A stretch of DNA of 64,000 nt from an uncultured Gammaproteobacteria bacterium (GTDB lineage: Bacteria; Patescibacteriota; Patescibacteriia; UBA11705), in contig CAZQEI010000005.1 of NCBI GenBank assembly GCA_964592195.1, forward strand, positions 5,689 through 69,688, written 5' to 3'. A program made the position numbers and the translations under genes. This document shows, one piece after another, positions 5,122 through 59,655 of the stretch. Positions within the stretch are counted from its first letter, which is position 1. Each line of letters opens with the position of its first letter. The notes under the pieces are model-generated. The model was not told the DNA's origin and did not search any database. It worked only from the letters and a program-made list of their open reading frames with translations.

Positions 5122-5212
5122 TGTATTGTATATTATGAAATCTACTTCCTGCTTTTCCGCCTGAGGCGGATCCGCCTTTGGCGGAGGAATTTTGGATTTG
5201 AAATTTGGAATT

Positions 5213-19182: not shown

Positions 19183-19183
19183 T

Positions 19184-24695: not shown

Positions 24696-25763
24696 TTATT
24701 CTTTGACAAAATGCATCTTTCTCGTGTCCATATCAACGACCACAGCCATGGGATTCATCAGTTTGGCAAATTCAGGGTACTTATCTTGAATTTTTTCCAC
24801 AGCGAATCTTTGCATAAACAATGCCTTTTCTCGTGCCAACAATGGTTCCACTCCAACAGCATCACGATAAATGGCTGAGCACAAAAGAACAAAATTCTCA
24901 TGAGTAACACGACTGCCTTCCATATTACTTTTAATAATACCAGCCGCTTTTTCAATCGGCTCATCCAGATTTGGACTGAACGGTCCGATGATCAAAGCCA
25001 TGTTCGGCTCATGCAACCAGTCAAAGCCACGACCAACACCAATCACCCATTCTCGATGTTCAGTATCACTCAACGGTCGATTACTCAGTTGCACTTCTTC
25101 AATGTGAGCAATATTACCAACAATCAAAGGCAAGAAATCTTCCAAAATTCTCGACGGCATGTCCGGATACAAACGCTTCAACATCATCCGCAAAGCTTTT
25201 TCGGATTTATCTTCAATTTGAGAAACATCGACAACTTCACCATTTTCACCATTCAAAATTACCGCGTCCAAATCAGTTTCAAAACCAAAGAGCACAGGAT
25301 AGACCACTTGATGTTGACTGCCGAAAACCCGTTCCACTTGTTGCTTCAACTTCCGCGTTTCCGACAATGCCAATTCATAATTATAACCATAACCAGCACA
25401 ACCACGATGAGTATTTCCACGCGAATAGTGATAAGTAACCAAAATCAAACATTTCTTTCCGTTGCTAACCGAATACTTCACCCAATTCATGACATCCAAA
25501 CCAAAGTGCGGCCAACCCATATCAAACTGTCCACCAATGTTGCGCCAAGGTTGAATGATTCCAAGTGGCGTGTTTGTGGCCACGGGAATATGGATTCTGC
25601 CATCCATACATTTAAAAGCCGCGATTTCTGTCGGATGTTTCGCGCGATACAATTCACGTGCCAATCTCGCATCTGGACTGGAAAATTGATCTGAGTGCTT
25701 TTTGTTCAACCTCATCAAATAACGAATCTGTTGTCGACTATTCACGTATCCTCCTTGTCCCAT
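24696..25763 (-). CDS. beta-carbonic-anhydrase-like zinc protein (long form), paralog 1
   Basis: FKCMDGRIH (C-x-D-x-R) and HYSRGNTHRGCAGYGY (H-x-x-C-x-G) resemble the two beta-CA zinc-ligand motifs. The protein is about 355 aa, longer than canonical beta-CA. Confidence 0.4.
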   Translation of the reverse strand: MGQGGYVNSRQQIRYLMRLNKKHSDQFSSPDARLARELYRAKHPTEIAAFKCMDGRIHIPVATNTPLGIIQPWRNIGGQFDMGWPHFGLDVMNWVKYSVSNGKKCLILVTYHYSRGNTHRGCAGYGYNYELALSETRKLKQQVERVFGSQHQVVYPVLFGFETDLDAVILNGENGEVVDVSQIEDKSEKALRMMLKRLYPDMPSRILEDFLPLIVGNIAHIEEVQLSNRPLSDTEHREWVIGVGRGFDWLHEPNMALIIGPFSPNLDEPIEKAAGIIKSNMEGSRVTHENFVLLCSAIYRDAVGVEPLLAREKALFMQRFAVEKIQDKYPEFAKLMNPMAVVVDMDTRKMHFVKE

Positions 25764-25879: not shown

Positions 25880-26968
25880 TTACTCAGTCACAACCGTCAT
25901 TTTACGCGTCACCATATCAACTGTGACCGCCATCGGATTCATTAAATCAACCAATTCTGGGAATTTAACTTTAATAGTTTCAATCGCAAACCGTTTCATA
26001 AATAAAGCTTTTTCCTTCGCCATCAACGGTTCTGAACCGGCGGCATCGCGATAAATTGCAGAACACAACAATGTAAACGATTGATTACCGGTACGACCAG
26101 CTTCCATGTTACTCTTAATAATACCGGCCGCTTTTTCAATTGGCTCAGCCAAGTTCGGACTAAACGGTCCAATAATTAAAGCTGTATTTGGTTCATGTAA
26201 CCAGTCAAAGCCACGACCAACACCAATCATCCATTCTCTATGTTCCGTATCACTCAACGGTCTATTGCTCATTTTTACTTCTTCAATATGCGCAACATTA
26301 CCAACTATTAAAGGTAAAAAATCAGCTAAAATTCTCAATGACATATCTGGGAATAATCGTCGTAACATGCTACGCAAACCTTCCTCAGTTTTATCTTGAA
26401 CTTCTGACAAATCCACCACTTCTCCATTTTCACCATGTAAAATCACCGCATCCAAGTCAGTTTCAAACCCAAATAATATAGGGTAAACAATTTGATGACT
26501 GGAACCATAAACACGTTCAATCTGTTGTTTCAATTTCTTTGTTTCACTCAAGGCTAACTGAGTATCATAGCAATAACCGGCGCAACCTCGGTGTTCGTGA
26601 CCACGAGAATAATGGTAGGTCGCCAAGATTAAACAATCACGACCATTACTAACGGAATATTTAACCCAGTTATTCACATCCATACCAAAATGAGGCCATC
26701 CCATATCAAACTTGCCACCCAAATTTCTCCAAGGTTGAATAATTCCCAATGGAGTATTTGTCGCAATCGGAATATGAATACGACCATCCATACATTTGAA
26801 CGCCGCAATTTCTGTCGGATGTTGGGCGCGATATTTTTCCCGAGCCAAACGAGCACCAGGACTAGAAAAAATATCTGAATGTTCTTTATTTTTTTTCAAT
26901 AAATATTCAATCTGCTCATCTCGAGTGATTGGATCATTATTTTGATTATTATTTAAATCACTTGTCAT
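25880..26968 (-). CDS. beta-carbonic-anhydrase-like zinc protein (long form), paralog 2
   Basis: A tandem paralog (FKCMDGRIH, HYSRGHEHRGCAGYCY), largely colinear with the gene at 24696. Confidence 0.4.
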   Translation of the reverse strand: MTSDLNNNQNNDPITRDEQIEYLLKKNKEHSDIFSSPGARLAREKYRAQHPTEIAAFKCMDGRIHIPIATNTPLGIIQPWRNLGGKFDMGWPHFGMDVNNWVKYSVSNGRDCLILATYHYSRGHEHRGCAGYCYDTQLALSETKKLKQQIERVYGSSHQIVYPILFGFETDLDAVILHGENGEVVDLSEVQDKTEEGLRSMLRRLFPDMSLRILADFLPLIVGNVAHIEEVKMSNRPLSDTEHREWMIGVGRGFDWLHEPNTALIIGPFSPNLAEPIEKAAGIIKSNMEAGRTGNQSFTLLCSAIYRDAAGSEPLMAKEKALFMKRFAIETIKVKFPELVDLMNPMAVTVDMVTRKMTVVTE

Positions 26969-35680: not shown

Positions 35681-38104
35681 CTACTCAGCTGGTTGCATCA
35701 TTAACCGTTCCCAATCGGTGATATCAATTACTCTTGTGACAATTTTATCATCTAACAACGCAATGACTTTCACAAAATTATTTTTAATATGCTCGAAATG
35801 ATAAATCTCATCAAATTCTTGACTGCACTGCTCACCATCTTCATTCATTAAACATTCTTCATCATCCCCTTTTGCCATAAAAAATACCTTGCCATTTATC
35901 ACTTTAAAAGCTTCAAATTTTTTATATTGTTTGTCTACATCAATCTTTTTTCCTTTAATGTATATTATTGAATGTCCATTATTCTTATATGCAATTAAAG
36001 ATAATTCTCCCGGAAAAATATTATCAATGTACTCTATGTCATCACAACCATCAGGAATTATATCCACCCCATCTAAAAGAAGATGTTTCCCGGTACCATC
36101 AAGATAGTCAAAGATCACATGACCTGATACTTCAATCGGTTCGCCTACTTTCCAACAGCCTAACTGAGGTGTTACCAATTTATCATTAATGAACACATGA
36201 AAATTATTATTTTGATAATCACGAACAGAAATCACAACCTTTCCGGCGATATTATGAACTACCGGTTTTTGATCTATTCCATTATTTCTCAATGATAATT
36301 GCTTGCCTTTATAAAACACCTGCCAAGTGCCATCATTTGACGCAGTATAAAAGACTCCCATTTCTGCCATTTCTTGAGAAGTGAATAAATGATCACAACC
36401 AAGTATTGGCGTCACTTCTTTATCATCATAATACAAATGTTGTTTACCCTGTTCATCAACAACCCAATATTCCAAATGATTTTTGGTGGCAATTAAATCT
36501 TTTAGTTCTTCATGGCCAGAAGGATCGGTTATTTCTTGGTCTCCAACAAACACATGCCATTTATCATCCAATGTTTTTGCTGTATAAGCCACCTTACCTT
36601 TATATTCTACAATCTTACCATCATCAATTGTTACATGCTGAAACTCCCGATTGGCGGATAACTCTTTTTTTCCATAATATAAATGATCATTGCCTACTTG
36701 ATCTCTGGCGGTAAAAACAATCTCACCAGCTAAAGTTTGCATCTGAAAGTAATTCACCTGACAACAATCATCATTATTTATTTTTTCATTATTAATATAA
36801 ATGTCATGCATCCCCTTTCTTGGCCCAAGGCTCTTTTTTACCACGGTCACGATTTGACCATTAATCACCTTCACTTTAATAATTTCATATTCAATACCAA
36901 GCGTTAGAACCTCCTTCTTGCCATGGATAATAATTCGATTGTGATGATCGTCAACAACATCAAAGACAGGCAAACCATTTAAATCATGAATTTCTGTAAT
37001 TTCTTCATATCCGTTTGGAGGGGTATATTCCTTTTGGCCAACAAAAACATGATGGCGTCTCCCCAACTTTCTATCAATTGTCTCGGTAATATATGCAACA
37101 TTCTCACCCACATCATAATTTTTATTCGGTGTTACACATCCTTCAGGTGGAGTAATCTCTTTGTCTCCATAAAAAATATGTACTACTTTTTCATCATTAA
37201 AAATAAAATTAAAATAAATCTTACCTCCTCTATCTATCGGCCCGAGCAATGAGCTGATTGGTTTGGGCGTATTAAATTCTTGTCCATCTATATAGACATG
37301 AAGATTGCCATCATTATCACTCGCAGTGAGAAACGAATGTCCGGCAATTACATCAACTTTATAATGTCGTTTATGCCCAGGTTTTAAAATGATTTCCTTA
37401 CCATCAAGATAATAATGACGCTGATCATTTTCATCAATCGCCTCAAAATATATTTTACCAGTTGACTCTTTAGGTTTTGTGATTTGTATATAACCATCCG
37501 GAGGTGTCACCCATTTTCCATTAAGATACGCATGACTCTTTGCGCTCTTATCTGTGGCCAATAAGATCAATTGGCCAGCCTCTCCGTTTTGTAAAATTTT
37601 AAACGTTAATGTTCCTTTGGGATGAATAATTTCTTTACCTTTTAAAAAAATGCGATCAACTTTATCTGCTCCTTGTACTTTAATAAAAGATTCTCCATGA
37701 ACCAGTCGACGAGAAATATGCAAGGCTCCTTCCTTATCCAAAACTGATTTATTATCAATATACAAATGTTGACGTCCTGGATTATCTTTCAAAACAAACG
37801 ACGAATGGCCAGCCAAAACCTCTGGATCAATTTCAATCGACCTACCATTTAATTTAACTTCCTTTTCTAAGTATTTAAAAGACTCCAACGATTCTTCGAA
37901 CGTGGCGATATCATGATATTTCCCCACTAAACGTAAAGCCTCAGCCACAGCTTCTGGATTTTTATCTTTTAACTTTTCGGTTAATTCCATCAACTTCTCG
38001 TTCACCGCAACCAAATCAGGCGCGGATTGGCGCGAAATATCGGCGGTGAGTTTTTGGGTGGGAAAGTTTTTCATTGAATTAGTCATTTCGAATTTACGAA
38101 TCAA
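35681..38104 (-). CDS. N-module family protein F6 (807 aa) with a long internal tandem-repeat (about 45 aa units) C-terminal region
   Basis: N-terminal QKLTADISRQSAPDLVAVNEKLMELTEKLKDKNPEAVAEALRLVGKYHD. Repeated units of type G..HhYhDGKEh.P.G follow (HLYIDNK, HVYIDGQ, HVFVGQKE, HLYYGKKE, HVFVGDQE, HLYYDDKE, FHVFINDK). The start may be the downstream Met at 38086. Confidence 0.55.
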   Translation of the reverse strand: MIRKFEMTNSMKNFPTQKLTADISRQSAPDLVAVNEKLMELTEKLKDKNPEAVAEALRLVGKYHDIATFEESLESFKYLEKEVKLNGRSIEIDPEVLAGHSSFVLKDNPGRQHLYIDNKSVLDKEGALHISRRLVHGESFIKVQGADKVDRIFLKGKEIIHPKGTLTFKILQNGEAGQLILLATDKSAKSHAYLNGKWVTPPDGYIQITKPKESTGKIYFEAIDENDQRHYYLDGKEIILKPGHKRHYKVDVIAGHSFLTASDNDGNLHVYIDGQEFNTPKPISSLLGPIDRGGKIYFNFIFNDEKVVHIFYGDKEITPPEGCVTPNKNYDVGENVAYITETIDRKLGRRHHVFVGQKEYTPPNGYEEITEIHDLNGLPVFDVVDDHHNRIIIHGKKEVLTLGIEYEIIKVKVINGQIVTVVKKSLGPRKGMHDIYINNEKINNDDCCQVNYFQMQTLAGEIVFTARDQVGNDHLYYGKKELSANREFQHVTIDDGKIVEYKGKVAYTAKTLDDKWHVFVGDQEITDPSGHEELKDLIATKNHLEYWVVDEQGKQHLYYDDKEVTPILGCDHLFTSQEMAEMGVFYTASNDGTWQVFYKGKQLSLRNNGIDQKPVVHNIAGKVVISVRDYQNNNFHVFINDKLVTPQLGCWKVGEPIEVSGHVIFDYLDGTGKHLLLDGVDIIPDGCDDIEYIDNIFPGELSLIAYKNNGHSIIYIKGKKIDVDKQYKKFEAFKVINGKVFFMAKGDDEECLMNEDGEQCSQEFDEIYHFEHIKNNFVKVIALLDDKIVTRVIDITDWERLMMQPAE

Positions 38105-38186: not shown

Positions 38187-38684
38187 CTATATTAAGGACT
38201 TCAACGTCGCCAGCACATCCGGTAACAACGGCATTACAATTTTAGATATTTTAAGAAAAATGGAACACAGGATAGAATCGCGGGCTTGACCGAGCACCCA
38301 GGGATTGAATGGGAAACGACTGTAGAAGAAAGTTAAAACCGATAAGATCATTATACTCTCAACCAAACCAAGAACAAAGCCCATAAACTTGTTAATCGTG
38401 TGTAAAAACGGTAACAGCATAACGATTTGTAATATTTTTCCCAGTAACCAAAAGAAAATCCCGATTAACTTTGACACGATAAAATAGATAACTAGAAAAG
38501 CGAAAAAATTCGCCATATTAGTCGCGCCAAACATTTGACCGGCTAACAAAAAGTATTTACCCGCCACCACAATACCAATAAGCATGGCAACAATTTTTCC
38601 CGCGGATAAAATAAAACCGCGACGCAAGCCCAAAATGGCACCGGCTAAAATTAACGATAACAAAATGAAATCAAGGACGTTCAT
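38187..38684 (-). CDS. cvpA: CvpA family membrane protein
   Basis: A 165 aa, 4-TM protein with N-terminal MNVLDFILLSLILAGAILGLRRGFI typical of CvpA. Confidence 0.65.
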   Translation of the reverse strand: MNVLDFILLSLILAGAILGLRRGFILSAGKIVAMLIGIVVAGKYFLLAGQMFGATNMANFFAFLVIYFIVSKLIGIFFWLLGKILQIVMLLPFLHTINKFMGFVLGLVESIMILSVLTFFYSRFPFNPWVLGQARDSILCSIFLKISKIVMPLLPDVLATLKSLI

Positions 38685-38703: not shown

Positions 38704-39675
38704 TCAAATACTTGGGTCTGGTTTCCATTTAAATAATATCCCTGCTGTCCCAAAGGCTGACATAGTCGGTCTCAAACCATCTTGACATAAAACAATTTCA
38801 TCATTCACCACGCCAACGCCCACATGATCTCTTCGCCTGACATCAAAAGCTCTAAAGAAACCTATATCACTACCTGGTTTATGAAAATGTTCTGGTCCAC
38901 GAACCATAATGAAATATAGTAATTCCTCAATCGTTACTCCATATTTTTCCCAAATTTTTTTTGCACTAGTCATCGATGGTTGTAATAGATTTAAATGACT
39001 AGCAAAATTTTGTATTGCTTTTGCACGAAGGAAAAAATCATCTTCCGTTAAACTTGACCCCTCCACAATGTTATTGCTAATCAACATCCAACCAGGAGAT
39101 AACGATTTCGTGTCCGGAATGTTTAGTCTTAAAATATCTGGAAAATTTCCGGCATTGAGAGAAGTGCTTTGCATTCTCATAGTCACTTTTCTATCAAGTA
39201 AAAAGCGACACATATCATAAAGTTTCGGAGACTCAGTTAATTTACCAGCAACAACCATATAACGAGGAATATAGACCAAGCTCATGTTCAATTCTTTTGC
39301 TCTTTTCAACTCGCCAACATTAAATGGAATCTCGGGTATCCCGGATCTTTCTTCCAAAAATAAATATTCATCAAATTTACTGCTACAAAACGCATTATCT
39401 TCTGGTCCGTAAACATTATCATGACCCATAATTTCTCGAGCTAATTCAAATTGCATCTCCCACGGGGAGCCAAACTCACGCCTTTTAACAGGATTATAAG
39501 CCTCTAATTTTTCTTTTATAATTCTAATCTCATCCGGACTCAAAGGCTTACCATTCTTAGCTTTCACCATGGCATGCAGTTGCTCCATTAAATCAGCGTA
39601 AGAAAGAGATTCTTCGCCTTTTGATAAGGTTAAATCAATTTTTGGTTCACCGATGGCCATATTTATTTTTCCCAT
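38704..39675 (-). CDS. N-module family protein A1 (type-A C-terminal domain)
   Basis: MAIGEPKIDLTLSKGEESLSYADLMEQLHAMVKAKNGKPLSPDEIRIIKEKLEA, then SLVYIPRY, GWMLISNNIV and a C-terminal GILFKWKPDPSI. The probable true start is the internal MAIGEPK Met. Confidence 0.55.
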   Translation of the reverse strand: MGKINMAIGEPKIDLTLSKGEESLSYADLMEQLHAMVKAKNGKPLSPDEIRIIKEKLEAYNPVKRREFGSPWEMQFELAREIMGHDNVYGPEDNAFCSSKFDEYLFLEERSGIPEIPFNVGELKRAKELNMSLVYIPRYMVVAGKLTESPKLYDMCRFLLDRKVTMRMQSTSLNAGNFPDILRLNIPDTKSLSPGWMLISNNIVEGSSLTEDDFFLRAKAIQNFASHLNLLQPSMTSAKKIWEKYGVTIEELLYFIMVRGPEHFHKPGSDIGFFRAFDVRRRDHVGVGVVNDEIVLCQDGLRPTMSAFGTAGILFKWKPDPSI

Positions 39676-40637
39676 TTGAATAAAATACCGGCTTGATGAA
39701 AAGAATCTGTGGCAGATAATAATTGCTCTTCAAATAGCACTAATTCTTTATGTGCCACGCCAATCCCAAACTGATCACCGTGTTCTTCACCATATGCACG
39801 AAAAACACCTTTATCACTACCGGACTTCCAAACTTTTTCTTCTCCACGCACAATGATAAAATATAATAATTCAACTATTGTTGGACAATGTTTTTTAAAA
39901 GTATCATCAATGTCAATATTTGAGCCTATTCGTTCATCAACGGACAAACGACTAAAAAACTCTTTCAATCTAAAAGCCCTCTGAAATTGATTTTCCTCAG
40001 TTAAGTCTGTGTTTTTCACTATTTGATTACTTATCATCATCCAACCAGAGGTTAAATGAATATAAAAATCTTTTTCTTTCACACTGCTTATGATTTCAAG
40101 CAAATTCCCAGCATTTATAGATCTGTCCATAAATCTCATTGCTTTCTGCATTTCTAAAAGCCTCAAGACCATGTGTACAAGCGATGGGATTTCTACATTT
40201 TTTTTCCTTACAATAATTCTTCCCGGCTTATACACCAAACACATATCCATTTCTTTTGCTCTTTTCAACTCATCCGCCGTAAATGGAATTTTATCAATAC
40301 CATACTTCATCTCGGCCTGCATATATTCGTCAAACTCGTTACCATAACAAAAAACATTTTGCTCAGGTCCATAGACATTGCCCTCGCCCATGATTTCTCG
40401 AGCAACATTAACTTGATCTTCCCAATCTCCACTAATTTCTTTTTGATTTCCAGGATCAAAAGACTCTAGTTTATCTTTAATGATTCTAATTTCATCCGGA
40501 CTCAATGGCTTACCATTCTTAGCTTTCACCATGGCATGCAGTTGCTCCATCAACTCGGCGTAAGAAAGTGATTCTTCGCCTTTTGATAAAGTTAATCCAA
40601 TTTTTGGTTCTCCGATGGCCATAATTATTTCTCCCAT
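39663..40637 (-). CDS. N-module family protein A2 (type-A)
   Basis: Colinear tandem paralog. MCLVYKP, GWMMISNQIV and a C-terminal GILFKWEK. Confidence 0.55.
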   Translation of the reverse strand: MGEIIMAIGEPKIGLTLSKGEESLSYAELMEQLHAMVKAKNGKPLSPDEIRIIKDKLESFDPGNQKEISGDWEDQVNVAREIMGEGNVYGPEQNVFCYGNEFDEYMQAEMKYGIDKIPFTADELKRAKEMDMCLVYKPGRIIVRKKNVEIPSLVHMVLRLLEMQKAMRFMDRSINAGNLLEIISSVKEKDFYIHLTSGWMMISNQIVKNTDLTEENQFQRAFRLKEFFSRLSVDERIGSNIDIDDTFKKHCPTIVELLYFIIVRGEEKVWKSGSDKGVFRAYGEEHGDQFGIGVAHKELVLFEEQLLSATDSFHQAGILFKWEK

Positions 40638-41554
40638 TTAAATAACACACCGCTATGTTTCAAATTACTGGTATTTGACAATGCATCGTTAACTAAAAAA
40701 CTTATTTCATTAAAAAATACACTTAAACAAAATGAATCCCTATGTTCTTCATCAAAAGCCCGAGCGACAAATCTATCTGATCTAGGCACCCACATATTTT
40801 TCACCCCTCGCACAAGACAAAAATACAAAAGTTCGGCCATTGACGGACAGTGTCTTTCCCATATAGCATTAGGCAAAACAGTATTTCCGGCTTCATATTC
40901 TTTGAATCTTAACCAATCATGACCAAAAAACGCCATTTTTTCAGCCCGCTCTCTGAAATTACTATCTTTGTCATCAGTTTTTTTTATTATATTTTTTGAA
41001 AGCAACATCCATCCTGATTTAAACATTGAATTTTTATCAATATTTTTTAAAACATCTTTATCCAACCCACAATTGATAGTTACTCCCAAATTCTTTGCCA
41101 CTTCCATAAAAGATTCAAGTCTGGGATTATACATTTCAACATTTGAAAATCTAAATGCCCAAGGTTTATAGACTAAACACATATCCGCTCTTCCCGCCAG
41201 CTCAAGGTCAAATTCAGAAAAAGGAATATCTGGGATATTATTAAGTATCTTCGTGTTTAACGCTGATGCAATTACATCTGGTCCATACACATTTTCCGCT
41301 CCCAATATTTCTCTGGCAATATTTACATCCGCTCGATCAAATTCATATTGATTTGATTTATCAGGAACAAAAGCTTCTAATTTTTCTTTTATAATTCTAA
41401 TCTCATCCGGACTCAAAGGCTTACCATTCTTAGCTTTCACCATGGCATGAAGTTGTTCCATCAACTCAGCATAAGAAACTGATTCTTCGCCTTTTGATAA
41501 TGTTAAATCAATTTTTGGTTCACCAATGGCCATAGTTAAATAAATTTTTCCCAT
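40625..41554 (-). CDS. N-module family protein A3 (type-A)
   Basis: Colinear tandem paralog. MCLVYKP, GWMLLSKNII and a C-terminal GVLFKWEK. Confidence 0.55.
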   Translation of the reverse strand: MGKIYLTMAIGEPKIDLTLSKGEESVSYAELMEQLHAMVKAKNGKPLSPDEIRIIKEKLEAFVPDKSNQYEFDRADVNIAREILGAENVYGPDVIASALNTKILNNIPDIPFSEFDLELAGRADMCLVYKPWAFRFSNVEMYNPRLESFMEVAKNLGVTINCGLDKDVLKNIDKNSMFKSGWMLLSKNIIKKTDDKDSNFRERAEKMAFFGHDWLRFKEYEAGNTVLPNAIWERHCPSMAELLYFCLVRGVKNMWVPRSDRFVARAFDEEHRDSFCLSVFFNEISFLVNDALSNTSNLKHSGVLFKWEK

Positions 41555-42453
41555 TTAAACATAACGCCGGAACCTTTAAGCTCATCCTTATTAGTTAACT
41601 TTTCTTCATCAAAACCAAATAACTTATTCCCCGTCATCGCCAATCCCAAATAATGTATTTGCGATTTGTCGTATCCACGAGCTTTAAAGATCTCTTGCCC
41701 GGACAGCATTAATCGCTCTTTTCCCAAGGTCATCATTACAAATAATAATTCGGGCAAAGACATAACATGATTTTGCCACAATCTTTTAGCCAGATTTTCA
41801 TTCATGGCCTCATTGTACCCCATATCCAATCTATTAACCGCGAAATCCTGCAAACATGCTGCTTGTTGAAAATAGTTCTTGCCACCCACAGAAAGTTGTA
41901 AAACATTTTTTGATACTAGCACCCAGCCAGAATGCATCATATTACTCGGAACTAAATTTGGATTATTTTCCGCCCAACTAAAAGCATCAAAACTTTCAGT
42001 TACCAATTGACTCATAGCTTCAAAACTTACTCCCAGAGTTTCGCTCAGTCCAAACTGTTCCGGTGTTGGTTTATAAATCAAAAACATTCCACACTCACTG
42101 GCTTTTTGCAATTTCTCTTCGGTAAAACGGATGGCGGGTAATTCAGCGATGGGCGCCAAACTCCAACGTGTAGCAATTTCATCTGGTCCAATAAAATTTT
42201 CTCCAAACAAACCTCTCGCCACCTCCATCTGCGCTTCCACCCTGGCGCGCTTTAACATTTTTTCATGATTAAATCGGTTCTCTTTATATTTATCAAATAA
42301 TTTGCAAACATAAGCTACATCATCTGGATCCAGATGAACACCTTTTCCCTTGGCCAATACCAACGCATGAAGTTTTTCTGTTAACTCCGCGTAAGACAGA
42401 TGATCATCGTCTTGCGATAAGGTTAAATCAATTTTGGGTTCACCGATTGCCAT
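41536..42453 (-). CDS. N-module family protein A4 (type-A)
   Basis: Colinear tandem paralog. MFLIYKP, GWVLVSKNVL and a C-terminal GVMFKWEKFI. Confidence 0.55.
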   Translation of the reverse strand: MAIGEPKIDLTLSQDDDHLSYAELTEKLHALVLAKGKGVHLDPDDVAYVCKLFDKYKENRFNHEKMLKRARVEAQMEVARGLFGENFIGPDEIATRWSLAPIAELPAIRFTEEKLQKASECGMFLIYKPTPEQFGLSETLGVSFEAMSQLVTESFDAFSWAENNPNLVPSNMMHSGWVLVSKNVLQLSVGGKNYFQQAACLQDFAVNRLDMGYNEAMNENLAKRLWQNHVMSLPELLFVMMTLGKERLMLSGQEIFKARGYDKSQIHYLGLAMTGNKLFGFDEEKLTNKDELKGSGVMFKWEKFI

Positions 42454-42455
42454 AA

Positions 42456-43361
42456 TTATTTAGACCATCGAATTATACATCCATTATCAATAAATGCTCT
42501 CTCACCATCAAAAAAAGAATTATAATCATACACCAATATACTTCCATCATTCTCTATATCGACCAAAGCGGTAAAATCCCCTTCTTTTCTATCATAAGCT
42601 AATGAGGTTAAAATACCCGGGATATTTTCTTTACCTCTCAAAACATAATAATAAAGGAGATCAACGACAGATAAACAAAACTCTGGTAAAACATTTTCCG
42701 TCTGAGGGCTAAATCGTTCTTTGAAATGGGCGGTAGCAAATTCCCAAATTTTCGATGACCTATCCAAGGTCGTGCATTTTTTTGTACCGGGAACAATATC
42801 CTTGCTGATTAACACCCATCCACTTAGCATACTGGACGAATCTTGAACTCTTTTACTAATATCATCCCACTTTTCATTTCCCCAACGTAAATTTATCCCA
42901 ATTTCATGCGCCTTCTCACATAATTCTTTCAAATTTGGATAGCTAACATCTTCGCCTCCTACATTAATTTTATTAGGTCGAAAAACTAAGCACATGCCAG
43001 CTGATTCTGCTCTTTTTAATTCTTCCACTGAATATGGAATATCTAAGACCTCTTGTGGCCAAGGTGATTTCCATCTTTCGACAAACTCCTGTGGGCCTAA
43101 CACATTTTCCTTCCCCAAAATTTCTCTAGCCTGTTTCAATTGACGTTTAAGATTTTTAGATAATTGATCTTCTGAATCAACCACTTCATTAGGAGTAAAC
43201 GCTTCTAATTTATTTTTAATTAATCGAATCTCATCTGCCGTCAATGGTTTACCATTCTTCGCTTTCATTATGTCATGCAACTCAGACATCAAACCAGCGT
43301 AGGAAATTTCTTCCTCGCCTTTGGATAAAGTTAAATCTAATTGTGGTTCTCCTCCCACCAT
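42456..43361 (-). CDS. N-module family protein A5 (type-A, most divergent)
   Basis: MVGGEPQLDLTLSKGEEEISYAGLMSELHDIMKAKNGKPLTADEIRLIKNKLEA, then MCLVFRP, GWVLISKDIV and a C-terminal GCIIRWSK. Confidence 0.5.
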   Translation of the reverse strand: MVGGEPQLDLTLSKGEEEISYAGLMSELHDIMKAKNGKPLTADEIRLIKNKLEAFTPNEVVDSEDQLSKNLKRQLKQAREILGKENVLGPQEFVERWKSPWPQEVLDIPYSVEELKRAESAGMCLVFRPNKINVGGEDVSYPNLKELCEKAHEIGINLRWGNEKWDDISKRVQDSSSMLSGWVLISKDIVPGTKKCTTLDRSSKIWEFATAHFKERFSPQTENVLPEFCLSVVDLLYYYVLRGKENIPGILTSLAYDRKEGDFTALVDIENDGSILVYDYNSFFDGERAFIDNGCIIRWSK

Positions 43362-43409
43362 TATATTATTTAGGAAACACCAAAAATATTTTTCAATGCT
43401 TCCTTAAGT

Positions 43410-44930
43410 TTAAGTTTTCTGTTCTGTTTCCTTGCGATTGAACAAACCTTCGCCTTTGTCTAAAACAGTTTCCGCTTTTAAACCGCCAATCACGCGTAAT
43501 TCCGCTAAAGTTTTAACTTTGTCATCAATAACACCCAGCTTTTGCCAAATCTTTTCCGCAGTTTCCGGCATATAAGGCATCATGGCGTAGGATAAGTGAC
43601 GAATGATTTCGAGTAAATTATAAATCACGGAATTTAATTTCGGATCATTCACCTTCGCCAATTCCCACGGTTTAATAGTGGCAATATAATTATCGCACCA
43701 ACGTGTGGCAATAATCACTGATTGCAAAGCTTCGTAAATACGATAATTTTCAAAATGACCATTATATTCTTCCCAAAATTTGTTTAAATCAAACTCGGCA
43801 TCAAAGGTGGCAGTCGGAACTTTGGAATCAAAATATTTTTCCGCCATACCAATAACCCGACTGACCAAGTTACCCACACCGTTGGCCAAATCAGCATTAT
43901 ATTTCGTAATGAATTCTTCTTTTTTAATATCACCATCATTACCAAAAGGATATTGGCACAAAATTAAATAACGCGCCGCATCACTGGCAAAATCATCAAC
44001 CAGTTGATTAGGATCAATTATATTACCAATACTTTTACTCATCTTTTGACCGTCAATGGTAAAGAAACCGTGAATAAACAAACCTTTCGGCACAGGTAAA
44101 TCTAACGATAATAACATCGCCGGCCAAATAGTGGCATGCACGCGTAAGATATCTTTACTCATTAATTCCACAGTCGCTGGCCAAAACTCCGGACAGGGAT
44201 CTTGCGGACCATTCCAACCGAGTACGGTTAAATAATTCAAAAACGCATCACTCCACACATAGGCAGTATGCTTTTCATCCCAAGGCAGAGGAATTCCCCA
44301 CTTCACATTCACGCGAGAAAAAGACACATCATTCAAACCTTCATTTTTATAAAACTGCAACATCTCATTGCGACGTTCTTCCGGTTGAATCACAAATTCA
44401 TTGCTTTCAATTTTTTTCAAAAGTTCATCCGCATACTTGGACATTTTGAACATGTAAGTTTCCTCTTCCATTTTTTCCGGAGCTTTCTTATGATCTGGGC
44501 AAAGTCCATCGACTAAATCTTTTTCACTCTTGTATTGTTCACAACCTCGGCAATAATAGCCGGTATATTTACCCAAATAAATATCACCCTTATCATACAT
44601 GTATTGCAAAGCTTTTTGCACGGCTAACATGTGGGCAGGATTTGAGGTACGAATAAATTTGTCATTAGAAACATTCAAGCGATCCCAAGCAAATTCAAAA
44701 GTGGCCGCCACTTCATCCACAAAGGCTTGAGGATCTTTGTTTTTTTCAATGGCAATGGCTTCAATCTTGGCGCCATGTTCATCTGTACCGGTAGCGAAAA
44801 AAGTTTTCTCTCCAAGCATGCGATGATAACGAGCCAAAACATCCGCGGCTACGGTCGTATAAGCATGACCAATGTGCGGCGCGGCATTTACATAATAAAT
44901 CGGGGTGGTGATGTAGAACTTTTTGTCCAT
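43410..44930 (-). CDS. metG: methionyl-tRNA synthetase
   Basis: HIGH-type motif APHIGHAYTTV, KMSKS motif QKMSKSIGN, and a CxxC zinc knuckle. Confidence 0.95.
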   Translation of the reverse strand: MDKKFYITTPIYYVNAAPHIGHAYTTVAADVLARYHRMLGEKTFFATGTDEHGAKIEAIAIEKNKDPQAFVDEVAATFEFAWDRLNVSNDKFIRTSNPAHMLAVQKALQYMYDKGDIYLGKYTGYYCRGCEQYKSEKDLVDGLCPDHKKAPEKMEEETYMFKMSKYADELLKKIESNEFVIQPEERRNEMLQFYKNEGLNDVSFSRVNVKWGIPLPWDEKHTAYVWSDAFLNYLTVLGWNGPQDPCPEFWPATVELMSKDILRVHATIWPAMLLSLDLPVPKGLFIHGFFTIDGQKMSKSIGNIIDPNQLVDDFASDAARYLILCQYPFGNDGDIKKEEFITKYNADLANGVGNLVSRVIGMAEKYFDSKVPTATFDAEFDLNKFWEEYNGHFENYRIYEALQSVIIATRWCDNYIATIKPWELAKVNDPKLNSVIYNLLEIIRHLSYAMMPYMPETAEKIWQKLGVIDDKVKTLAELRVIGGLKAETVLDKGEGLFNRKETEQKT

Positions 44931-45916: not shown

Positions 45917-45945
45917 TTGACAAACTTTAAACTATGTGCTATAAT
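45917..45945 (+). promoter_or_regulatory. Consensus sigma70-type promoter TTGACA-17-TATAAT
   Basis: ttgaca (45917-45922), a 17-nt spacer, tataat (45940-45945). It lies directly upstream of the GC-rich non-coding island on the plus strand. Confidence 0.6.
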
Positions 45946-45951
45946 GCTTAG

Positions 45952-47508
45952 TTACATGATCGTTTACAATCAATAGCTCTCGTAGAGTCTTTTGACTCCG
46001 AGATGTCTATAACCAACTCCAAGCCCCCACCGAACTATGCACATTGGAGGTGCCGCAGGAATGCGATCGGGGGCAGATGCAGGGTGGACATGCCAAAGTA
46101 TAGGCTCGTAACAAAAACCGCGAGGAGAGAAGCGGTTTGAGCTGAAGCTGTGGACAACCCCACCCTAATTCGTCAAAACTCTCGCTCGAGCCACAAGGTT
46201 CGCGAGATAATTGACTGCTCCTCGTCAGATGAGCCGCAACCAACGGGACTCATGGCGAGGCACGCGCACGTATCTTGGTATGGAGTAAGCACCGCGGTTG
46301 ACCCTGCTGGTAACAGGGTGGTATATAACCGGCGGAAGCGCTACATAGTACAAGAGGTGCGGTGAAATCGAGCCCGATTCGTCGGGATTTCGATACGAGC
46401 TCCTGGAGCCCCCACCCAACAACACACCTGGAGGTGGCGCGTAATGCGTTTGGGGGCAGACAGCGGGTGAGACAGACTTGTCTCGACCAATTGACTACTC
46501 AAAGAAGTGAAAGATCCTCGACGAGAAAGTCTCACCCAAAGTCGTCGATTTCTCTACCGCAAGGTGGAGATCGAAGATACGCTGACTCGGACGATCGCGG
46601 TCCTGTGGCCCTCCCGCCCCTCTGCTGGTGGCAGAGATGGACAATCGTTCGAGCGTACCCCGGCCCTAAGCTCGGCTAACCCTGCGCCTCGCGGTGCACG
46701 GTCAAGCAGCTTCCGTGGCAGTCCTCACGAGGCTCGTTCGGTCGCTCGCTGGAGTCCTCTTCAGGATAAACCAGCCCGCCGCGACTGCGCCCCAGACTTC
46801 CGTCTGTCGGGGCTTACGCCTGTGGGGTTCGCACGCCACGCGAGGTGTCCGGGGATGCGAAGTTGATCGTTCTGCGAAAGTGGAACGTCGACATAGATCA
46901 CCACGCAACTCTCCCAGCAAATCCAGGGAGACTACCCGCCTTGAGTCTTTTGGGCCACGTGTGGACGAGTTAAATCGTCCTGTACAAGCCTCAGTTCGAA
47001 ACTGGCTCTAAGGCGGGCACGAAATTGACCACTCTTCGGAGTGTGTTGATACAGATCATCCGAGGGCTCGCAGCTCACACCCACTCGATGTGGGAGTCAG
47101 CTCTGAGCTCGTCAACGTGAGCACCAACGTCACTGGCGGTTCTTATCCGTCCAGAATCTGGTCAGCCTGAAGTACAAGGGCTGGTTGGAGGAGGGGTTCA
47201 CGGTGATGTCCATGGTGTCCGAACAATCGGACTGACCATATCAGAACGCCACCCATCGTCGCATGCGCAACGATTCATCGAACTCGGACATCCGAGACAC
47301 AGCATGACGCGACGATCGGGCGTTGATCCCCAGTTCACATCTGGTTCAGGCCGCAAACAAAAGCGACTGACCGATAAGCTGGGGACACGAATTCAGCCTT
47401 TGCTGATGGACAAGATGACTTCGGTCGTCGCGTTCTCGCAAAGTGTTGATAGATCTCAAGCTCCGACGTTGAACACCTCACGGTGAACAACGTCGGAGCA
47501 CTTTTTTT
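45952..47508 (+). ncRNA. Candidate large (about 1.55 kb) GC-rich structured non-coding RNA of unknown class, or a non-coding foreign insertion
   Basis: There is an abrupt shift to GC-rich sequence with no frame free of stops. The short ORFs are Arg/Pro/Ser-rich in all six frames. It is bounded by a consensus promoter and an intrinsic terminator, and carries an internal ~65-nt repeat (46024-46090 and 46409-46476). Confidence 0.45.
47461..47508 (+). terminator. Rho-independent terminator
   Basis: An 11-bp stem ctccgacgttg/caacgtcggag with an inner sub-hairpin cacc-tcac-ggtg, followed by cacTTTTTTTaTTT. Confidence 0.7.
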
Positions 47509-54997: not shown

Positions 54998-55951
54998 TTA
55001 TTTTTTAAAAGCTATCGTAAAACGAAAACCAGTATGATCATTTCTTGTATTATCTCGAACAACATTAATATTTCCAGCGCCTTCTCGACCACCAACCACA
55101 AGATTTTGCCAAGTATTTAAACCTAAAGTCGAGGTTCTTTCTTCCCCAAGAGTTTGCGTTAAGGCTGGATAAACTTCACACAATTGTCGGAACAATAATG
55201 CTGGCGTTAATATCACATCAAAATCTCGATATTTTAATTTTTTTTCATTCCAGTCATTACAAATCATTTCTTTAATTTTTGCTAATATTATATTCACCTC
55301 ATCAATACATAATTTAAACCGCCCATATCTAGAAGCCGTTGGTGGTAACCCATCACACCAGGTTATTATTGACTCGACTATATCTAGGTTTTTCGAAAGA
55401 CCTTCTTGTGAACCATAATGTTTTTCTTGAAATGTGGTAACCGAGGGTTTTTGAATACTCTCCGTAACAAATAAATCATATTTTTGTGCCAGTTGTTCAG
55501 CTTCTTTTTTCATTATCTCAAAAAACACCTCTGATCCAATTCTATTGCCATCTAATCCAGTCTGTTTCATGCTGGTGCTTCGATAATTCACCAAGCCTTT
55601 CTTTGAATCTTCTTCAGTTTGTTCTACTGGATACATTTTATTAAACCATTCTGCGGTTAATTCTTCGGGATGTATTGGTTCTGAGATAAACGGCTTATTT
55701 TCACCAAAAAATATATCTTCAATCGCTTTTATCTGTTTACCATATTTCATTTCCTTTGGAGAAGAATCTTCAACCGTTTCACCAAATGCCTGGACAAAGC
55801 GCAAAGCTTCCAAGACCTGTTCTGGTTTAGGATTTTTGCCTTGAGACTTTATTCTTTTTGCCAAGTCAAACAAACCCTCGTTGATTTTAATTTGATCATT
55901 GGATTGGGAGGGTGTGAGGTTAGCGGTTAATTTTTCAACGTTATTTAGCAT
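54998..55951 (-). CDS. N-module family protein B1 (type-B C-terminal domain)
   Basis: VEKLTANLTPSQSNDQIKINEGLFDLAKRIKSQGKNPKPEQVLEALRFV, then IKAIEDIFFGENKPF, WFNKMYP, VILTPALLFRQL, REGAGN and a C-terminal GFRFTIAFKK. Confidence 0.55.
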   Translation of the reverse strand: MLNNVEKLTANLTPSQSNDQIKINEGLFDLAKRIKSQGKNPKPEQVLEALRFVQAFGETVEDSSPKEMKYGKQIKAIEDIFFGENKPFISEPIHPEELTAEWFNKMYPVEQTEEDSKKGLVNYRSTSMKQTGLDGNRIGSEVFFEIMKKEAEQLAQKYDLFVTESIQKPSVTTFQEKHYGSQEGLSKNLDIVESIITWCDGLPPTASRYGRFKLCIDEVNIILAKIKEMICNDWNEKKLKYRDFDVILTPALLFRQLCEVYPALTQTLGEERTSTLGLNTWQNLVVGGREGAGNINVVRDNTRNDHTGFRFTIAFKK

Positions 55952-55956: not shown

Positions 55957-57204
55957 TTAAATTTCACGATTTTTTGTAAAATCTCTTTTTCGATCCTCAA
56001 GCTCATTAATTAAATGCTCCATTTCATAAAATTTAGTATTTGCTGAAATTACAGAACCTAACATCGTGTTCATTCTTGCTGTATGCGCTAATCTTTTCCT
56101 CATCGTTATTAAAATTTTATCAATTTGAATTACTGCATCTTTAATAAAGTCATGCGCTTCTTTCTCTTTATAAAAAACTATTGACAATCTAAAAAACTCA
56201 GCGTGTTTATCATCCATAGTTTTATACCACACTGACCCAGCACCGCCATTCTCCTGATCTTTATCTTCTTCGTAACCAATAAAGCCTCCAATAGTCAAAT
56301 AAGCCTTTTCGTTTTCGATCTTGGTGGAAGTCAAAATTCTATAAATTGATTGCGACAATTCCGGTTTATCCTCCATAATTTGCCTGGTAATTACAGCCGG
56401 CGTGCACATCACGCGAAATGGTGGTATTTTCAAGCCTTGCTCTTTCCACTTTTTTATTAATTCATCTTCTATCTTTTGCACTAATGTCAACCTAACATCA
56501 TCTACACCTAAAAAATATCTGGTTTTATTTTCTCCAAATGCTTCATTAATATAATCATTGATCGGATCAATCACTAATCCACGACGTTTATCATCCTGTT
56601 CAATTGGCATTGCTAATTCCGAATACACCATTTCCCAATCCGACATTTCCGTCACTTCATTTTTCATGGCACGAACAAAGTCATCCATGAAAGTTTTAAC
56701 TAAACAATCTTTGGGTTTATAATTTTTCTTCAACTTCTTTTTAAACCACTCAATCACAGCATATTCTTTTCTTGCAACACTAAGATCAATATTGCAAATA
56801 TGTGGTCGAAAATTCAATCTCCCAGCTTTAACATCTTCATCGCGTTGATGATCTTTATCCACATTGGGAAACATTTTTTCAAACCAAGCATCGTTAATCT
56901 CTTCCGGCTTGGGTGGTAAACAAACGTATGGTTCATCAATGCCGAAAAATTGATCTTGAATCGCCTCAATATATGTTCTAAATTTTTCTTTTGGATCAGC
57001 TTCCTTAGTCAAACTATAAGATTGCTCCACTAACCGCAAAGCTTCCTTTATTCGTTCACTATCCCGAGCACCGCCTTCTTCTCGAATCCTCTTCGCCAAC
57101 GCTCGCATATCTTCATCAACCCGAACCCGCTCCACGGCTTGCGCTGGAGTTTGATTAGCTGTGAGTTTTTCAATATGATTTGGCATTGTAATTATTGCTC
57201 CCAA
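55957..57204 (-). CDS. N-module family protein B2 (type-B)
   Basis: IEKLTANQTPAQAVERVRVDEDMRALAKRIREEGGARDSERIKEALRLVEQ, then WFEKMFP, VMCTPAVITRQI, ENGGAGS and FFRLSIVFYKEK, plus an extra C-terminal tail. Confidence 0.55.
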   Translation of the reverse strand: MGAIITMPNHIEKLTANQTPAQAVERVRVDEDMRALAKRIREEGGARDSERIKEALRLVEQSYSLTKEADPKEKFRTYIEAIQDQFFGIDEPYVCLPPKPEEINDAWFEKMFPNVDKDHQRDEDVKAGRLNFRPHICNIDLSVARKEYAVIEWFKKKLKKNYKPKDCLVKTFMDDFVRAMKNEVTEMSDWEMVYSELAMPIEQDDKRRGLVIDPINDYINEAFGENKTRYFLGVDDVRLTLVQKIEDELIKKWKEQGLKIPPFRVMCTPAVITRQIMEDKPELSQSIYRILTSTKIENEKAYLTIGGFIGYEEDKDQENGGAGSVWYKTMDDKHAEFFRLSIVFYKEKEAHDFIKDAVIQIDKILITMRKRLAHTARMNTMLGSVISANTKFYEMEHLINELEDRKRDFTKNREI

Positions 57205-59344: not shown

Positions 59345-59655
59345 TTAATAAGTTTATGAAATTTATTTTTTAATTTCCCTTTTTTACCAACGAATAATTT
59401 GTCTACTTCTGCAATCATTTCACCTAGACCAGCGTTTAATTCCTTTATGACTTTATCAAATAATTCAGCGTCGATAATTTTCGTAGTATCTTCATATTGC
59501 CCGACTAATTTCAAAGCCTCTGAAACTTGTTCTGGCGTCGCCTTTTTACCTTGTAACTTAACTCGCCTAGCCAACTCCATTAACTTCTCGTTTACATCTA
59601 CTTGATTAACAGCTTTTTCTGGAGTCACATTGGCAGTCAATTTTTCTTGACTCAT
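59341..59655 (-). CDS. N-module-only family member B5 (104 aa, truncated)
   Basis: MSQEKLTANVTPEKAVNQVDVNEKLMELARRVKLQGKKATPEQVSEALKLVGQYEDT with no C-terminal domain. Confidence 0.5.
   Translation of the reverse strand: MSQEKLTANVTPEKAVNQVDVNEKLMELARRVKLQGKKATPEQVSEALKLVGQYEDTTKIIDAELFDKVIKELNAGLGEMIAEVDKLFVGKKGKLKNKFHKLIK

What the first reader, a model, noticed from the sequence alone, without database searches (positions are those of the whole stretch)
38704..43361. Five colinear tandem paralogs (type-A domain) with conserved [MC]xL[VI][YF]xP, GW[MV][LM][IV]S and C-terminal G[IV][LM]FKWEK motifs
Five adjacent genes of about 300 aa have abutting or slightly overlapping ORFs. Divergence increases from A1 to A5; A5 begins MVGGEPQLD and ends CIIRWSK. 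This is the signature of tandem duplication followed by diversification, as in arrays of variant effectors or of immunity/orphan modules. The conserved Trp-containing GWMLIS and the invariant C-terminal FKWEK suggest a folded domain with a functional C-terminal tail. No known enzyme motif was recognisable. The putative Cys in the MCLVYKP motif is not invariant: A1 has Ser and A4 has Phe.
Basis: seen in the sequence. Interest (0 to 1): 0.7.

Follow-up and report, generated by a model that had tools for sequence, protein, structure and literature searches.

The report
DGR-type binding-protein genes without a DGR
Five back-to-back genes encode diverged copies of a putative ligand-binding protein that most related candidate-phyla bacteria diversify with a mutagenic retroelement, but this 64-kb window has no such retroelement, so the variety appears to be stored as separate gene copies.

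Summary
Five intact minus-strand genes (301-319 aa) lie head to tail, each separated from the next by exactly 2 nt.

They are not an orphan family. An exhaustive profile search links them, over their full length, to a Patescibacteria-wide family with no Pfam model. In about 25 of 32 homologous loci, the last ~120 nt of the gene is a variable region. It is paired with a template repeat that differs only at template adenines, next to a reverse transcriptase and bAvd. That is the signature of a diversity-generating retroelement (DGR).

The window itself has no reverse transcriptase, bAvd, template repeat, AAA_5 or vWA gene. The five 3' ends are about 62% identical with no adenine bias. So this is a DGR-less, lineage-specific five-copy expansion.

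The gene bodies are old (dS saturated). The first ~170 nt of A1-A3 are 89-92% identical (dS 0.27-0.53), which indicates 5' gene conversion of a two-helix N-terminal module.

At least one other genome carries comparable DGR-less arrays, and another likely does.

Verdict: a new variant of a known kind, of moderate interest. The ligand and cellular role are unknown.

The parts
42456..43361 (-). A5, the first gene of the array in transcription order (301 aa; MVGGEPQ... to ...CIIRWSK)
   Evidence: ORF. Present as a 301-aa NCBI protein, P0005. Matches the family HMM at E = 1e-56.
41536..42453 (-). A4 (305 aa), the most divergent copy. Its N-terminal module is also diverged.
   Evidence: N-terminal dS against A1-A3 is 0.8-1.5. 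Family HMM E = 1e-49.
40625..41533 (-). A3 (302 aa from the MAIGEPK start; the longest ORF runs on to 41554)
   Evidence: (P0002, 302 aa).
39663..40622 (-). A2 (319 aa from the MAIGEPK start; the longest ORF runs on to 40637). This is the protein modelled with the 59-sequence alignment.
38704..39660 (-). A1, the last gene of the array (318 aa). It ends ...GILFKWKPDPSI and is followed after 19 nt by cvpA.
   Evidence: (P0003, 318 aa).
39489..39690 (-). Homogenised 5' block of A1: about 170 nt of coding sequence for the two-helix N-terminal module, plus the junction with the A2 stop codon. This is the reference copy of repeat family D1.
   Evidence: D1: 202 nt; copies at 40451-40652 are 89% identical, 41362-41563 84%, 43190-43391 68%. 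(83-100% nt identity from +1 to about +170, then a sharp drop). (dS 0.27-0.53 here against 1.3-4 in the gene bodies).
40451..40652 (-). Homogenised 5' block of A2
41362..41563 (-). Homogenised 5' block of A3
39663..39809 (-). Segment of A2 (about residues 272-319, ...GDQFGIGVAHKELVLFEEQLLSATDSFHQAGILFKWEK) that aligns with the DGR variable region of canonical family members. Approximate equivalents in the other copies: A1 38704-38850, A3 40625-40768, A4 41536-41685, A5 42456-42614.
   Evidence: Alignment A3. VR/TR pairs in homologous loci map to the last ~120 nt of the gene. No TR-like copy and no adenine-biased mismatches in the window.
43410..44930 (-). Upstream flank: methionyl-tRNA synthetase-like gene (506 aa), 48 nt before A5. 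The function is read from the sequence and was not tested with a family search.
   Evidence: translation. Present as an NCBI protein on the same 81,855-bp contig.
38187..38684 (-). Downstream flank: CvpA (colicin V production) membrane protein
   Evidence: Pfam PF02674, E = 7.7e-18.
35681..38104 (-). Next gene downstream: an 807-aa repeat-rich protein. Its N-terminus carries the 'KLT' two-helix module shared by 11 ORFs of the window and weakly similar to the N-terminal module of the array.
   Evidence: module HMM E = 5e-24. No Pfam family above threshold.

Best explanation
The array encodes five fixed variants of a soluble, non-enzymatic ligand-binding protein. Each protein has two parts:
- a ~57-residue N-terminal two-helix 'handle';
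- a ~250-residue body that belongs to the Patescibacteria family of DGR variable proteins, which is probably a divergent C-type-lectin fold.

In most relatives, a diversity-generating retroelement rewrites the last ~40 codons and so changes the binding surface. In this lineage the variable-region/template-repeat signature is gone from the genes, and no reverse transcriptase or template repeat lies in the 64-kb window. Diversity is instead held as five old, diverged paralogs. They are co-oriented with 2-nt spacers, so they are probably co-transcribed and translationally coupled.

Gene conversion keeps the handle nearly identical in A1-A3. I infer that the handle docks every variant onto one common partner, while the bodies supply different specificities.

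Shown: paralogy, family membership, DGR association of the relatives, absence of DGR parts from the window, and the 5' homogenisation tract.

Inferred: the binding function, the handle acting as a docking module, and co-expression.

Unknown: the ligand, and whether the role is defence-type sensing or interaction with a host or partner cell.
For: Paralogy and gene structure:
- Five intact paralogs.
- Exactly 2 nt between each stop codon and the next ATG.
- No hydrophobic segment (maximum Kyte-Doolittle 19-residue mean 1.28).

Family membership:
- The exhaustive HMM search gave 430 relatives at E <= 1e-3 and 48 at E <= 1e-10.
- The five align end to end with these relatives, including GILFKWEK against LGVSFSRS.
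- The relatives come almost entirely from Patescibacteria MAGs.

DGR association of relatives:
- In about 25 of 32 loci, the last ~120 nt of the gene has a second copy whose mismatches all lie at adenines of that copy. Examples: L003 17/17, L005 21/21, L001 14/14.
- RVT_1 and bAvd are adjacent.
- vWA and AAA_5 genes lie upstream in at least 18 loci.

Fold:
- Two AF2 models (pLDDT 75 and 84).

Not an enzyme: across 59 family members the invariant and near-invariant residues are only L, W, A, G, P and I.

No DGR in the window:
- tblastn with a family RT and bAvd finds nothing better than E = 1.2.
- The five 3' ends match only each other, at about 62% identity and with unbiased substitutions.
- No AAA_5 or vWA gene is present.

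Gene conversion:
- In the N-terminal 57 codons of A1-A3, nt identity is 89-92% and dS is 0.27-0.53.
- In the gene bodies, nt identity is 46-56% and dS is 1.3-4.
- The boundary is sharp, at about +170 nt.

The pattern recurs in other genomes:
- The closest relatives (P0006, P0008, P0013, P0026) share the handle and lack the canonical VR tail. Each is recorded on a single NCBI contig of 126,086 bp, presumably the same one.
- MAG E14_metabat.bin.303 has two five-copy arrays with their own conserved handle and no RT or TR in the DNA held. A WD40 protein there carries the same handle, next to AAA_5.
Against: - No binding partner, ligand or expression data exist.
- The window covers 64 kb of an 81,855-bp contig from an incomplete genome, so a DGR elsewhere cannot be excluded.
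- The handle's similarity to other N-terminal modules in the window is marginal (hmmsearch E 0.002-0.06; hhalign probability 49%).
- No AAA_5/vWA partner lies nearby, so the docking idea is an analogy with L033 and with published MoxR-vWA systems (PMC7159879).
- dS in the bodies is saturated, so dN/dS values there are unreliable.
Confidence: 0.6

Rival explanations
1. Recombination-driven variation system. The nearly identical 170-nt 5' blocks serve as substrates for homologous recombination or unequal crossing-over. This would expand, contract or reshuffle the array, and change which bodies are present or how strongly they are expressed in a population. It would resemble cassette-based antigenic variation.
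For: 89-92% identical 5' blocks occur at a 911-962-nt period. dS shows that sequence has been exchanged between the copies. Copy number differs between genomes: 5 here, probably at least 4 on another contig, and 5 and 6 in E14_metabat.bin.303.
Against: All five copies have their own start codon and an intact ORF, so none is a silent cassette. No invertible elements or recombinase genes were noticed next to the array. A single assembly cannot show population heterogeneity. This reading could hold alongside the main explanation.
Confidence: 0.12
2. Decaying relics. After the DGR was lost, the former target genes duplicated and are now drifting without function.
For: The canonical VR tail is lost. 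The bodies are extremely diverged, at 22-44% aa identity. There are no close relatives among 5.8 billion clustered proteins apart from one other contig.
Against: All five ORFs are intact and of similar length. dN/dS is below 1 in every comparison. The family-wide structural residues (A74, G79, G85, I112, L119, A122, L129, W194) are retained in all five. The junction spacing is exact. The handle is actively homogenised.
Confidence: 0.08
3. Orphan immunity or variant effector array of a polymorphic toxin system.
For: The layout is a tandem array of diverged paralogs with a constant N-terminus and variable remainder. Other arrays in the window share a constant N-terminal module.
Against: No toxin, immunity or secretion-system family is detected in the five proteins or their neighbours in Pfam, NCBIfam or PADLOC. 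The flanking genes are housekeeping (metG-like, cvpA). The homologs are DGR variable proteins, not immunity proteins.
Confidence: 0.07
4. The five are still active DGR targets, served in trans by a template repeat and reverse transcriptase outside the window.
For: The family is DGR-targeted in most genomes. About 18 kb of the contig and the rest of the genome were not visible. Remote targets are known for other DGRs (PMC7159879 mentions template repeats located elsewhere in the genome).
Against: The five VR-equivalent segments are only about 62% identical to each other, contain indels and show no adenine bias, so one template repeat could not serve them. The canonical, non-adenine-encoded constant residues of the VR (..LV.VG.F..G..V....P......LGVSFSRS) are replaced. 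With 2-nt intergenic spacers there is no room for a 3' IMH or hairpin element outside the next gene.
Confidence: 0.05
5. Enzymes of the FGE/EgtB/PvdO type, which share the same fold.
Against: No Pfam FGE-sulfatase match. No conserved Cys, His or acidic residues across the family. No sequence hit to any PDB chain.
Confidence: 0.03

Closest known systems
Variable (target) proteins of Patescibacteria/CPR diversity-generating retroelements (DGR clade 2 of Roux et al. 2021, PMC8144416; first described by Paul et al. 2017, Nat Microbiol, cited from memory because the paper is not held)
   Same: Homologous over the full length. About 300-340 aa. No signal peptide, transmembrane segment or Pfam domain, as PMC8144416 reports for CPR targets. 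N-terminal helical hairpin followed by the conserved core A.EI.G..GP / IP.IPF..EL..A / GW.L.S. Often found as 2-3 tandem copies.
   Different: No VR/TR pair, RT or bAvd in the window. The canonical VR tail (LGVSFSRS) is replaced by GILFKWEK. No vWA or AAA_5 neighbours. Five copies, diverged throughout the body and not only in the last 40 residues.
Structurally characterised C-type-lectin-fold DGR variable proteins: TvpA (2y3c), Mtd (1yu0), TaqVP (5vf4)
MoxR(AAA+)-vWA ternary conflict systems with DGR-diversified FGS/C-type-lectin sensor domains and N-terminal effector-associated adaptor domains (Kaur et al. 2020, PMC7159879; Dore et al. 2024, PMC10907252)
   Same: The canonical relatives sit in vWA - AAA_5 - C-type-lectin - TR - RT cassettes. 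A short N-terminal helical module is shared by proteins with different C-terminal domains, for example the C-type-lectin-like body and WD40 in L033. This resembles the logic of effector-associated domains.
   Different: Those systems were described mainly in multicellular bacteria, with the FGS domain fused to the vWA component. The window has no AAA_5 or vWA gene. No Pfam or PADLOC model matches the handle. Homology of the handle to any published adaptor domain was not tested.
Multigene families with a constant 5' end kept uniform by gene conversion and a variable remainder (general phenomenon, cited from my own knowledge)
   Same: A sharp-edged 170-nt tract of 89-92% identity sits on top of saturated divergence.
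   Different: Every copy is a complete gene that could be expressed. No evidence of an expression site or silent cassettes.

Membership tests
Active DGR target (variable protein in the functional sense) | C-terminal variable region with a cognate template repeat that differs from it only at template adenines | tested here: not met
   A blastn search (word size 7) of the last 280 nt of each gene against the window finds only the other paralogs, at about 62% identity and with unbiased mismatches. The same test is positive in about 25 of 32 homologous loci.
Active DGR target (variable protein in the functional sense) | DGR-type reverse transcriptase (and usually bAvd) in the same locus or genome | tested here: not met
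   tblastn with the L001 RT and bAvd against the window gives no hit better than E = 1.2. The same RT query detects RTs at 41-65% identity in 20 of the 36 fetched loci. Sequence outside the 64-kb window could not be examined.
Patescibacteria DGR variable-protein sequence family (homology) | Significant full-length profile similarity to proteins whose 3' ends are demonstrable variable regions | tested here: met
   The profile of the five proteins retrieves the family (48 hits at E <= 1e-10). The family HMM scores the five at E = 1e-50 to 1e-57. The alignment runs end to end. VR/TR pairs were shown in the retrieved loci.
C-type-lectin / FGE-sulfatase fold | Structural match to C-type-lectin-fold proteins | tested here: inconclusive
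C-type-lectin / FGE-sulfatase fold | Match to a Pfam model of the clan (FGE-sulfatase, DUF1566, Lectin_C) | tested here: not met
   No such Pfam family at E <= 1 for any of the five, nor among 64 family members at E <= 1e-3.
MoxR-vWA ternary conflict system | Adjacent AAA+ (MoxR/AAA_5) and vWA genes | tested here: not met
   tblastn with the AAA_5 and vWA proteins of L001 and L033 gives no hit in the window. These genes are present in at least 18 homologous loci.
Polymorphic-toxin immunity or effector array | Neighbouring toxin or secretion gene, or a recognised toxin or immunity domain | tested here: not met
   No such family in Pfam, NCBIfam, PADLOC or PHROGs for the five proteins or their neighbours.

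The most novel reading that the evidence does not exclude
This genome may carry a DGR-independent, gene-encoded recognition repertoire. Many proteins would share a common N-terminal two-helix handle: the five paralogs here, plus 11 further ORFs of the window with the related 'KLT' module. The handle would plug diverse binding domains (C-type-lectin-like bodies, beta-rich repeats and others) into one shared machine, either for export and display or for signalling. Gene conversion would keep the handles compatible. In that case, tandem paralog arrays and DGR mutagenesis would be two interchangeable routes to receptor diversity within the same protein family in Patescibacteria.
Probability: 0.15. 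Interest if true: 0.75.

Novelty: new variant of a known kind. Interest (0 to 1): 0.5.

Why it matters
DGR variable proteins of candidate-phyla bacteria are abundant, but no function or Pfam model exists for them. This array shows the same scaffold kept as five fixed, diverged copies with no retroelement in the window. That gives a natural comparison between diversity encoded as gene copies and diversity generated by a retroelement.

The finding also offers two practical leads:
- The five stable sequence variants could be expressed and screened for ligands, which is harder with a hypervariable target.
- The N-terminal handle is kept uniform by gene conversion, which marks it as the likely contact point with the rest of the system and so as a way to find the partner.

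It also supplies an end-to-end alignment and profile for a family of at least 430 clusters (at 50% identity) that current domain libraries miss.

Tried and rejected
Domain, structure-sequence and fold searches:
- Pfam, NCBIfam, PADLOC and PHROGs scans of the five proteins gave nothing above threshold.
- Sequence searches of the PDB with the 5-sequence and 59-sequence profiles gave nothing.
- Foldseek against the PDB gave nothing significant.
- The afdb50 fold library was unavailable.

Homolog searches with the word index:
- The first search returned only proteins of the window's own contig.
- The third, with the KLT-module alignment, returned one protein from the same contig.

Locus retrieval:
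- The look-up of encoding contigs has no record for P0003 or P0006, so neither the rest of the 81,855-bp contig nor the 126,086-bp contig of the closest relatives could be read.
- The alignments were too diverse for the search for related loci.
- A metagenome scan with N-terminal-module patterns found no relative.
- Paul et al. 2017 is not held in the paper library.

Ideas tested and rejected:
- An active DGR in the window.
- AAA_5 or vWA partners in the window.
- Further family members elsewhere in the window.
- Enrichment of promoters or terminators within the array (46 promoter-like sites against 40.8 expected, 7 terminator-like against 8.8).

Idea left weak:
- That FKWEK is conserved because it embeds a Shine-Dalgarno sequence for the next gene. 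TGGGAG/TGGGAA lies 7-9 nt before the ATG at A3->A2 and A2->A1, and further upstream at A4->A3, where the FI extension intervenes. It is absent at A5->A4, and the same strand is conserved family-wide as FSRS, so this is at most a secondary constraint.

Technical failures:
- A first NJ bootstrap script timed out and a second crashed. The third worked.


Full report
**1. Observation**

The five ORFs exist exactly where stated, all on the minus strand. They are unmistakable paralogs: identity to A1 is 53, 43, 29 and 34%, and profile E-values are 1e-124 to 1e-140.

NCBI's protein lengths for this contig (318, 319, 302, 305 and 301 aa) and the conserved MAIGEPK start show that the apparent overlaps come from taking the longest ORF. 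With the real starts, each of the four internal junctions is stop + 2 nt + ATG. A5 lies 48 nt after a metG-like gene, and A1 lies 19 nt before cvpA.

A4, not A5, is the most divergent copy.

The proteins have no hydrophobic segment that could be a signal peptide or membrane helix.

**2. The family**

Pfam, NCBIfam, PADLOC, PHROGs and PDB sequence searches are all empty. The word-indexed search of 5.8 billion proteins returned only the contig's own proteins.

The exhaustive HMMER search changed the picture. It found 430 cluster representatives at E <= 1e-3 and 48 at E <= 1e-10. Most are about 300-350 aa. Twelve of the 64 scanned carry an N-terminal AAA_5 domain.

A 59-sequence alignment shows that the window proteins align end to end with this family:
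- AREI.G..NVYGP corresponds to A.EI.G....GP.
- IPFT.DELKRAKE corresponds to IP.IPFS.EELERAKEL.
- MCLVYKP corresponds to Q.LVLR.D.
- GWMLIS corresponds to GWALVSKE.
- The terminal GILFKWEK corresponds to LGVSFSRS.

Across the family, the invariant and near-invariant positions are only L, W, A, G, P and I. That pattern fits a structural scaffold, not an active site.

**3. The family consists of DGR variable proteins**

A scan of one genome per GTDB species retrieved 36 loci, almost all from Patescibacteria MAGs: Berkelbacteria, Howlettbacteria, Parcubacteria, Magasanikiibacteria, Saccharibacteria and others.

In about 25 of 32 loci tested, the last ~120 nt of the gene has a second copy 0.3-5 kb away. 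All mismatches lie at adenines of that second copy: L003 17/17, L005 21/21, L001 14/14, L024 22/22. This is the defining TR/VR signature of a diversity-generating retroelement.

The VR encodes the last ~40 residues, for example KRRNSDGRLVYVGYFESAGVSVGRYRPGYSRGDLGVSFSRSR.

The neighbours are an RVT_1 reverse transcriptase and a bAvd protein. In at least 18 loci a vWA (CobT-like) gene and an AAA_5 gene lie upstream, and the AAA_5 protein often ends in its own copy of the domain with a VR. Two or three tandem target genes per cassette are usual.

This matches published descriptions. [quoted passage not shown]

**4. Fold**

AF2 with only the five paralogs gave pLDDT 75 and pTM 0.71. With the 59-sequence alignment it gave pLDDT 84 and pTM 0.79.

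- invasin, intimin and animal C-type lectins;
- the three solved C-type-lectin-fold DGR variable proteins among the hits: TvpA (5.1), Mtd (4.6) and TaqVP (3.8).

The scores are low, and Foldseek against the PDB finds nothing. I therefore treat the fold as probable, not proven. The DGR context is independent support, because C-terminal VRs typically sit in this fold (PMC6328139, PMC5006420).

**5. The window array is not DGR-served**

- tblastn with a family RT and bAvd finds only noise in the window (best E = 1.2). The same RT query detects RTs at down to 41% identity in the other loci.
- The last 280 nt of each of the five genes matches nothing in the window except the other paralogs, at about 62% identity and with substitutions spread over all base classes.
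- No AAA_5 or vWA homolog is present. No sixth family member is present.
- The canonical constant residues of the VR have been replaced.
- The 2-nt spacers leave no room for 3' targeting elements.

A DGR elsewhere in this incomplete genome cannot be excluded. Even so, one template repeat could not serve five such different ends.

**6. Evolution of the array**

The five copies form a clade (49/50 NJ bootstraps). It is sister (42/50) to four proteins, P0006, P0008, P0013 and P0026. Each of these is recorded on a single NCBI contig of 126,086 bp, presumably the same one. They share the N-terminal module and also lack the canonical VR tail. So a second genome probably has at least four copies. I could not fetch that contig.

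Within the window, the gene bodies are anciently diverged: 22-44% aa identity, 41-56% nt identity and saturated dS of 1.3-4.

The first 57 codons tell a different story:
- In A1-A3 they are 89-92% identical at the DNA level, with dS of 0.27-0.53.
- Identity runs at 83-100% from +1 to about +170 nt and then collapses. The tract corresponds to repeat family D1.
- Because synonymous sites are affected, this is sequence exchange (gene conversion) among the three adjacent copies, not merely protein-level constraint.
- A4 and A5 have older handles (dS 0.8-1.5).

**7. The handle**

The AF2 models place two helices (about residues 21-34 and 42-54) around an NGKPLSPDE loop.

A similar helix-loop-helix N-terminus occurs in canonical family members. 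In MAG E14_metabat.bin.303, two five-copy DGR-less arrays (L006, L033) have their own well-conserved handle: 52-62% identity against 26-28% in the distal body. In L033 the same handle also heads a WD40 beta-propeller protein, next to an AAA_5 gene and a vWA-like gene (the latter recognised by a MIDAS-like motif and its gene position; Pfam finds nothing in it).

In the window, 11 other minus-strand ORFs share a related 'KLT' module at E = 1e-24 to 1e-30. They include the 807-aa protein two genes downstream of the array. The similarity of this module to the array's handle is in register and reciprocal but weak: hmmsearch E 0.002-0.06, hhalign probability 49% and E = 1.7e-4.

I infer that the handle is a docking or adaptor module common to proteins with different binding domains. 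This is analogous to the effector-associated adaptor domains described for MoxR-vWA conflict systems, some of which use DGR-diversified FGS/C-type-lectin sensors (PMC7159879, PMC10907252). It is an inference by analogy. No partner lies in the window.

**8. Mechanism proposed**

Five co-oriented, probably co-transcribed genes supply five fixed specificities of a C-type-lectin-like binding scaffold. A common N-terminal handle, kept uniform by gene conversion, connects them to one partner. The lineage has replaced retroelement-driven rewriting of one surface with a small repertoire of gene copies.

Whether the ligands are phage or invader molecules (defence-type sensing inside the cell) or host or partner structures is not resolved. 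The lack of signal peptides and the AAA_5/vWA context of relatives lean towards an intracellular role.

**9. Rivals**

The rivals are a recombination-based variation system, decaying relics, an immunity or effector array, trans-acting DGR targeting, and FGE-type enzymes. Each is weighed in the rival list, and none is better supported than the main explanation.

**10. Verdict**

This is a new variant of a known kind, of moderate interest.

Noticed in passing
window 3961-5226, 5213-6904, 7535-8260, 8387-9640, 18190-19224, 35681-38104, 54998-55951, 55957-57204, 57192-58352, 58367-59344, 59344-59679 (all minus strand): Eleven further ORFs share a ~56-aa N-terminal two-helix 'KLT' module ([EQ]KLT..xT..Q....V.VNE.L..LAK......P..V...L.LVE.Y), matching the module HMM at E = 1e-24 to 1e-30. 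Several sit in two tandem arrays of four genes. Their C-terminal regions differ, and the ten that were scanned have no Pfam match. The word-indexed search found the module only on this contig.
   Followed up: partly
window ~45950-47450, + strand: A 1.5-kb non-coding island of 54-66% GC in a 37% GC genome. It is preceded by a perfect sigma-70 consensus promoter (45917-45945, TTGACA-17-TATAAT with TG) that points antisense to every gene of the window. There is no Rfam match. RNAfold z-score is -8.1 on the + strand and -3.7 on the - strand (20 shuffles). It contains two similar internal modules. This is a candidate large structured non-coding RNA.
   Followed up: partly
L006 592-5387 and L033 907-5679, 9999-12088 (MAG E14_metabat.bin.303): Two five-copy tandem arrays of the same family, with a locally conserved N-terminal handle and no RT or TR in the DNA held. 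Only one copy keeps a canonical VR-like tail. A WD40 beta-propeller protein carries the same handle, next to an AAA_5 gene and a vWA-like gene.
   Followed up: partly
window 1-64000: All but two of the 55 ORFs of at least 150 aa are on the minus strand, and those two lie inside minus-strand ORFs. GC skew is negative throughout. The strand bias in gene orientation is extreme.
   Followed up: no
window 24696-25763 and 25880-26968 (minus strand): Two adjacent paralogous ORFs (355 and 362 aa) share ...FSSP.ARLARE.YRA.HPTEIAAFKCMDGRIHIP.ATNTPLGIIQPWRN.GG.FDMGW.... The CxDxR-like motif resembles beta-carbonic-anhydrase-type sites. This was seen only in the translations and was not searched.
   Followed up: no
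window 9829-11406 and 11411-13012 (minus strand): Two adjacent ORFs of 525 and 533 aa have similar N-termini (..LDGFG.AP.....I.LAKKPNFD...). They look like a tandem duplicate of a cofactor-independent phosphoglycerate-mutase-like gene. This is read from the sequence only.
   Followed up: no
L001 5300-12545 and at least 17 other loci: The canonical Patescibacteria cassette is vWA (CobT_C-like), then AAA_5 with a C-terminal VR domain, then a short variable protein with its VR, then TR, bAvd and RT. The AAA_5 protein is therefore itself a DGR target.
   Followed up: yes
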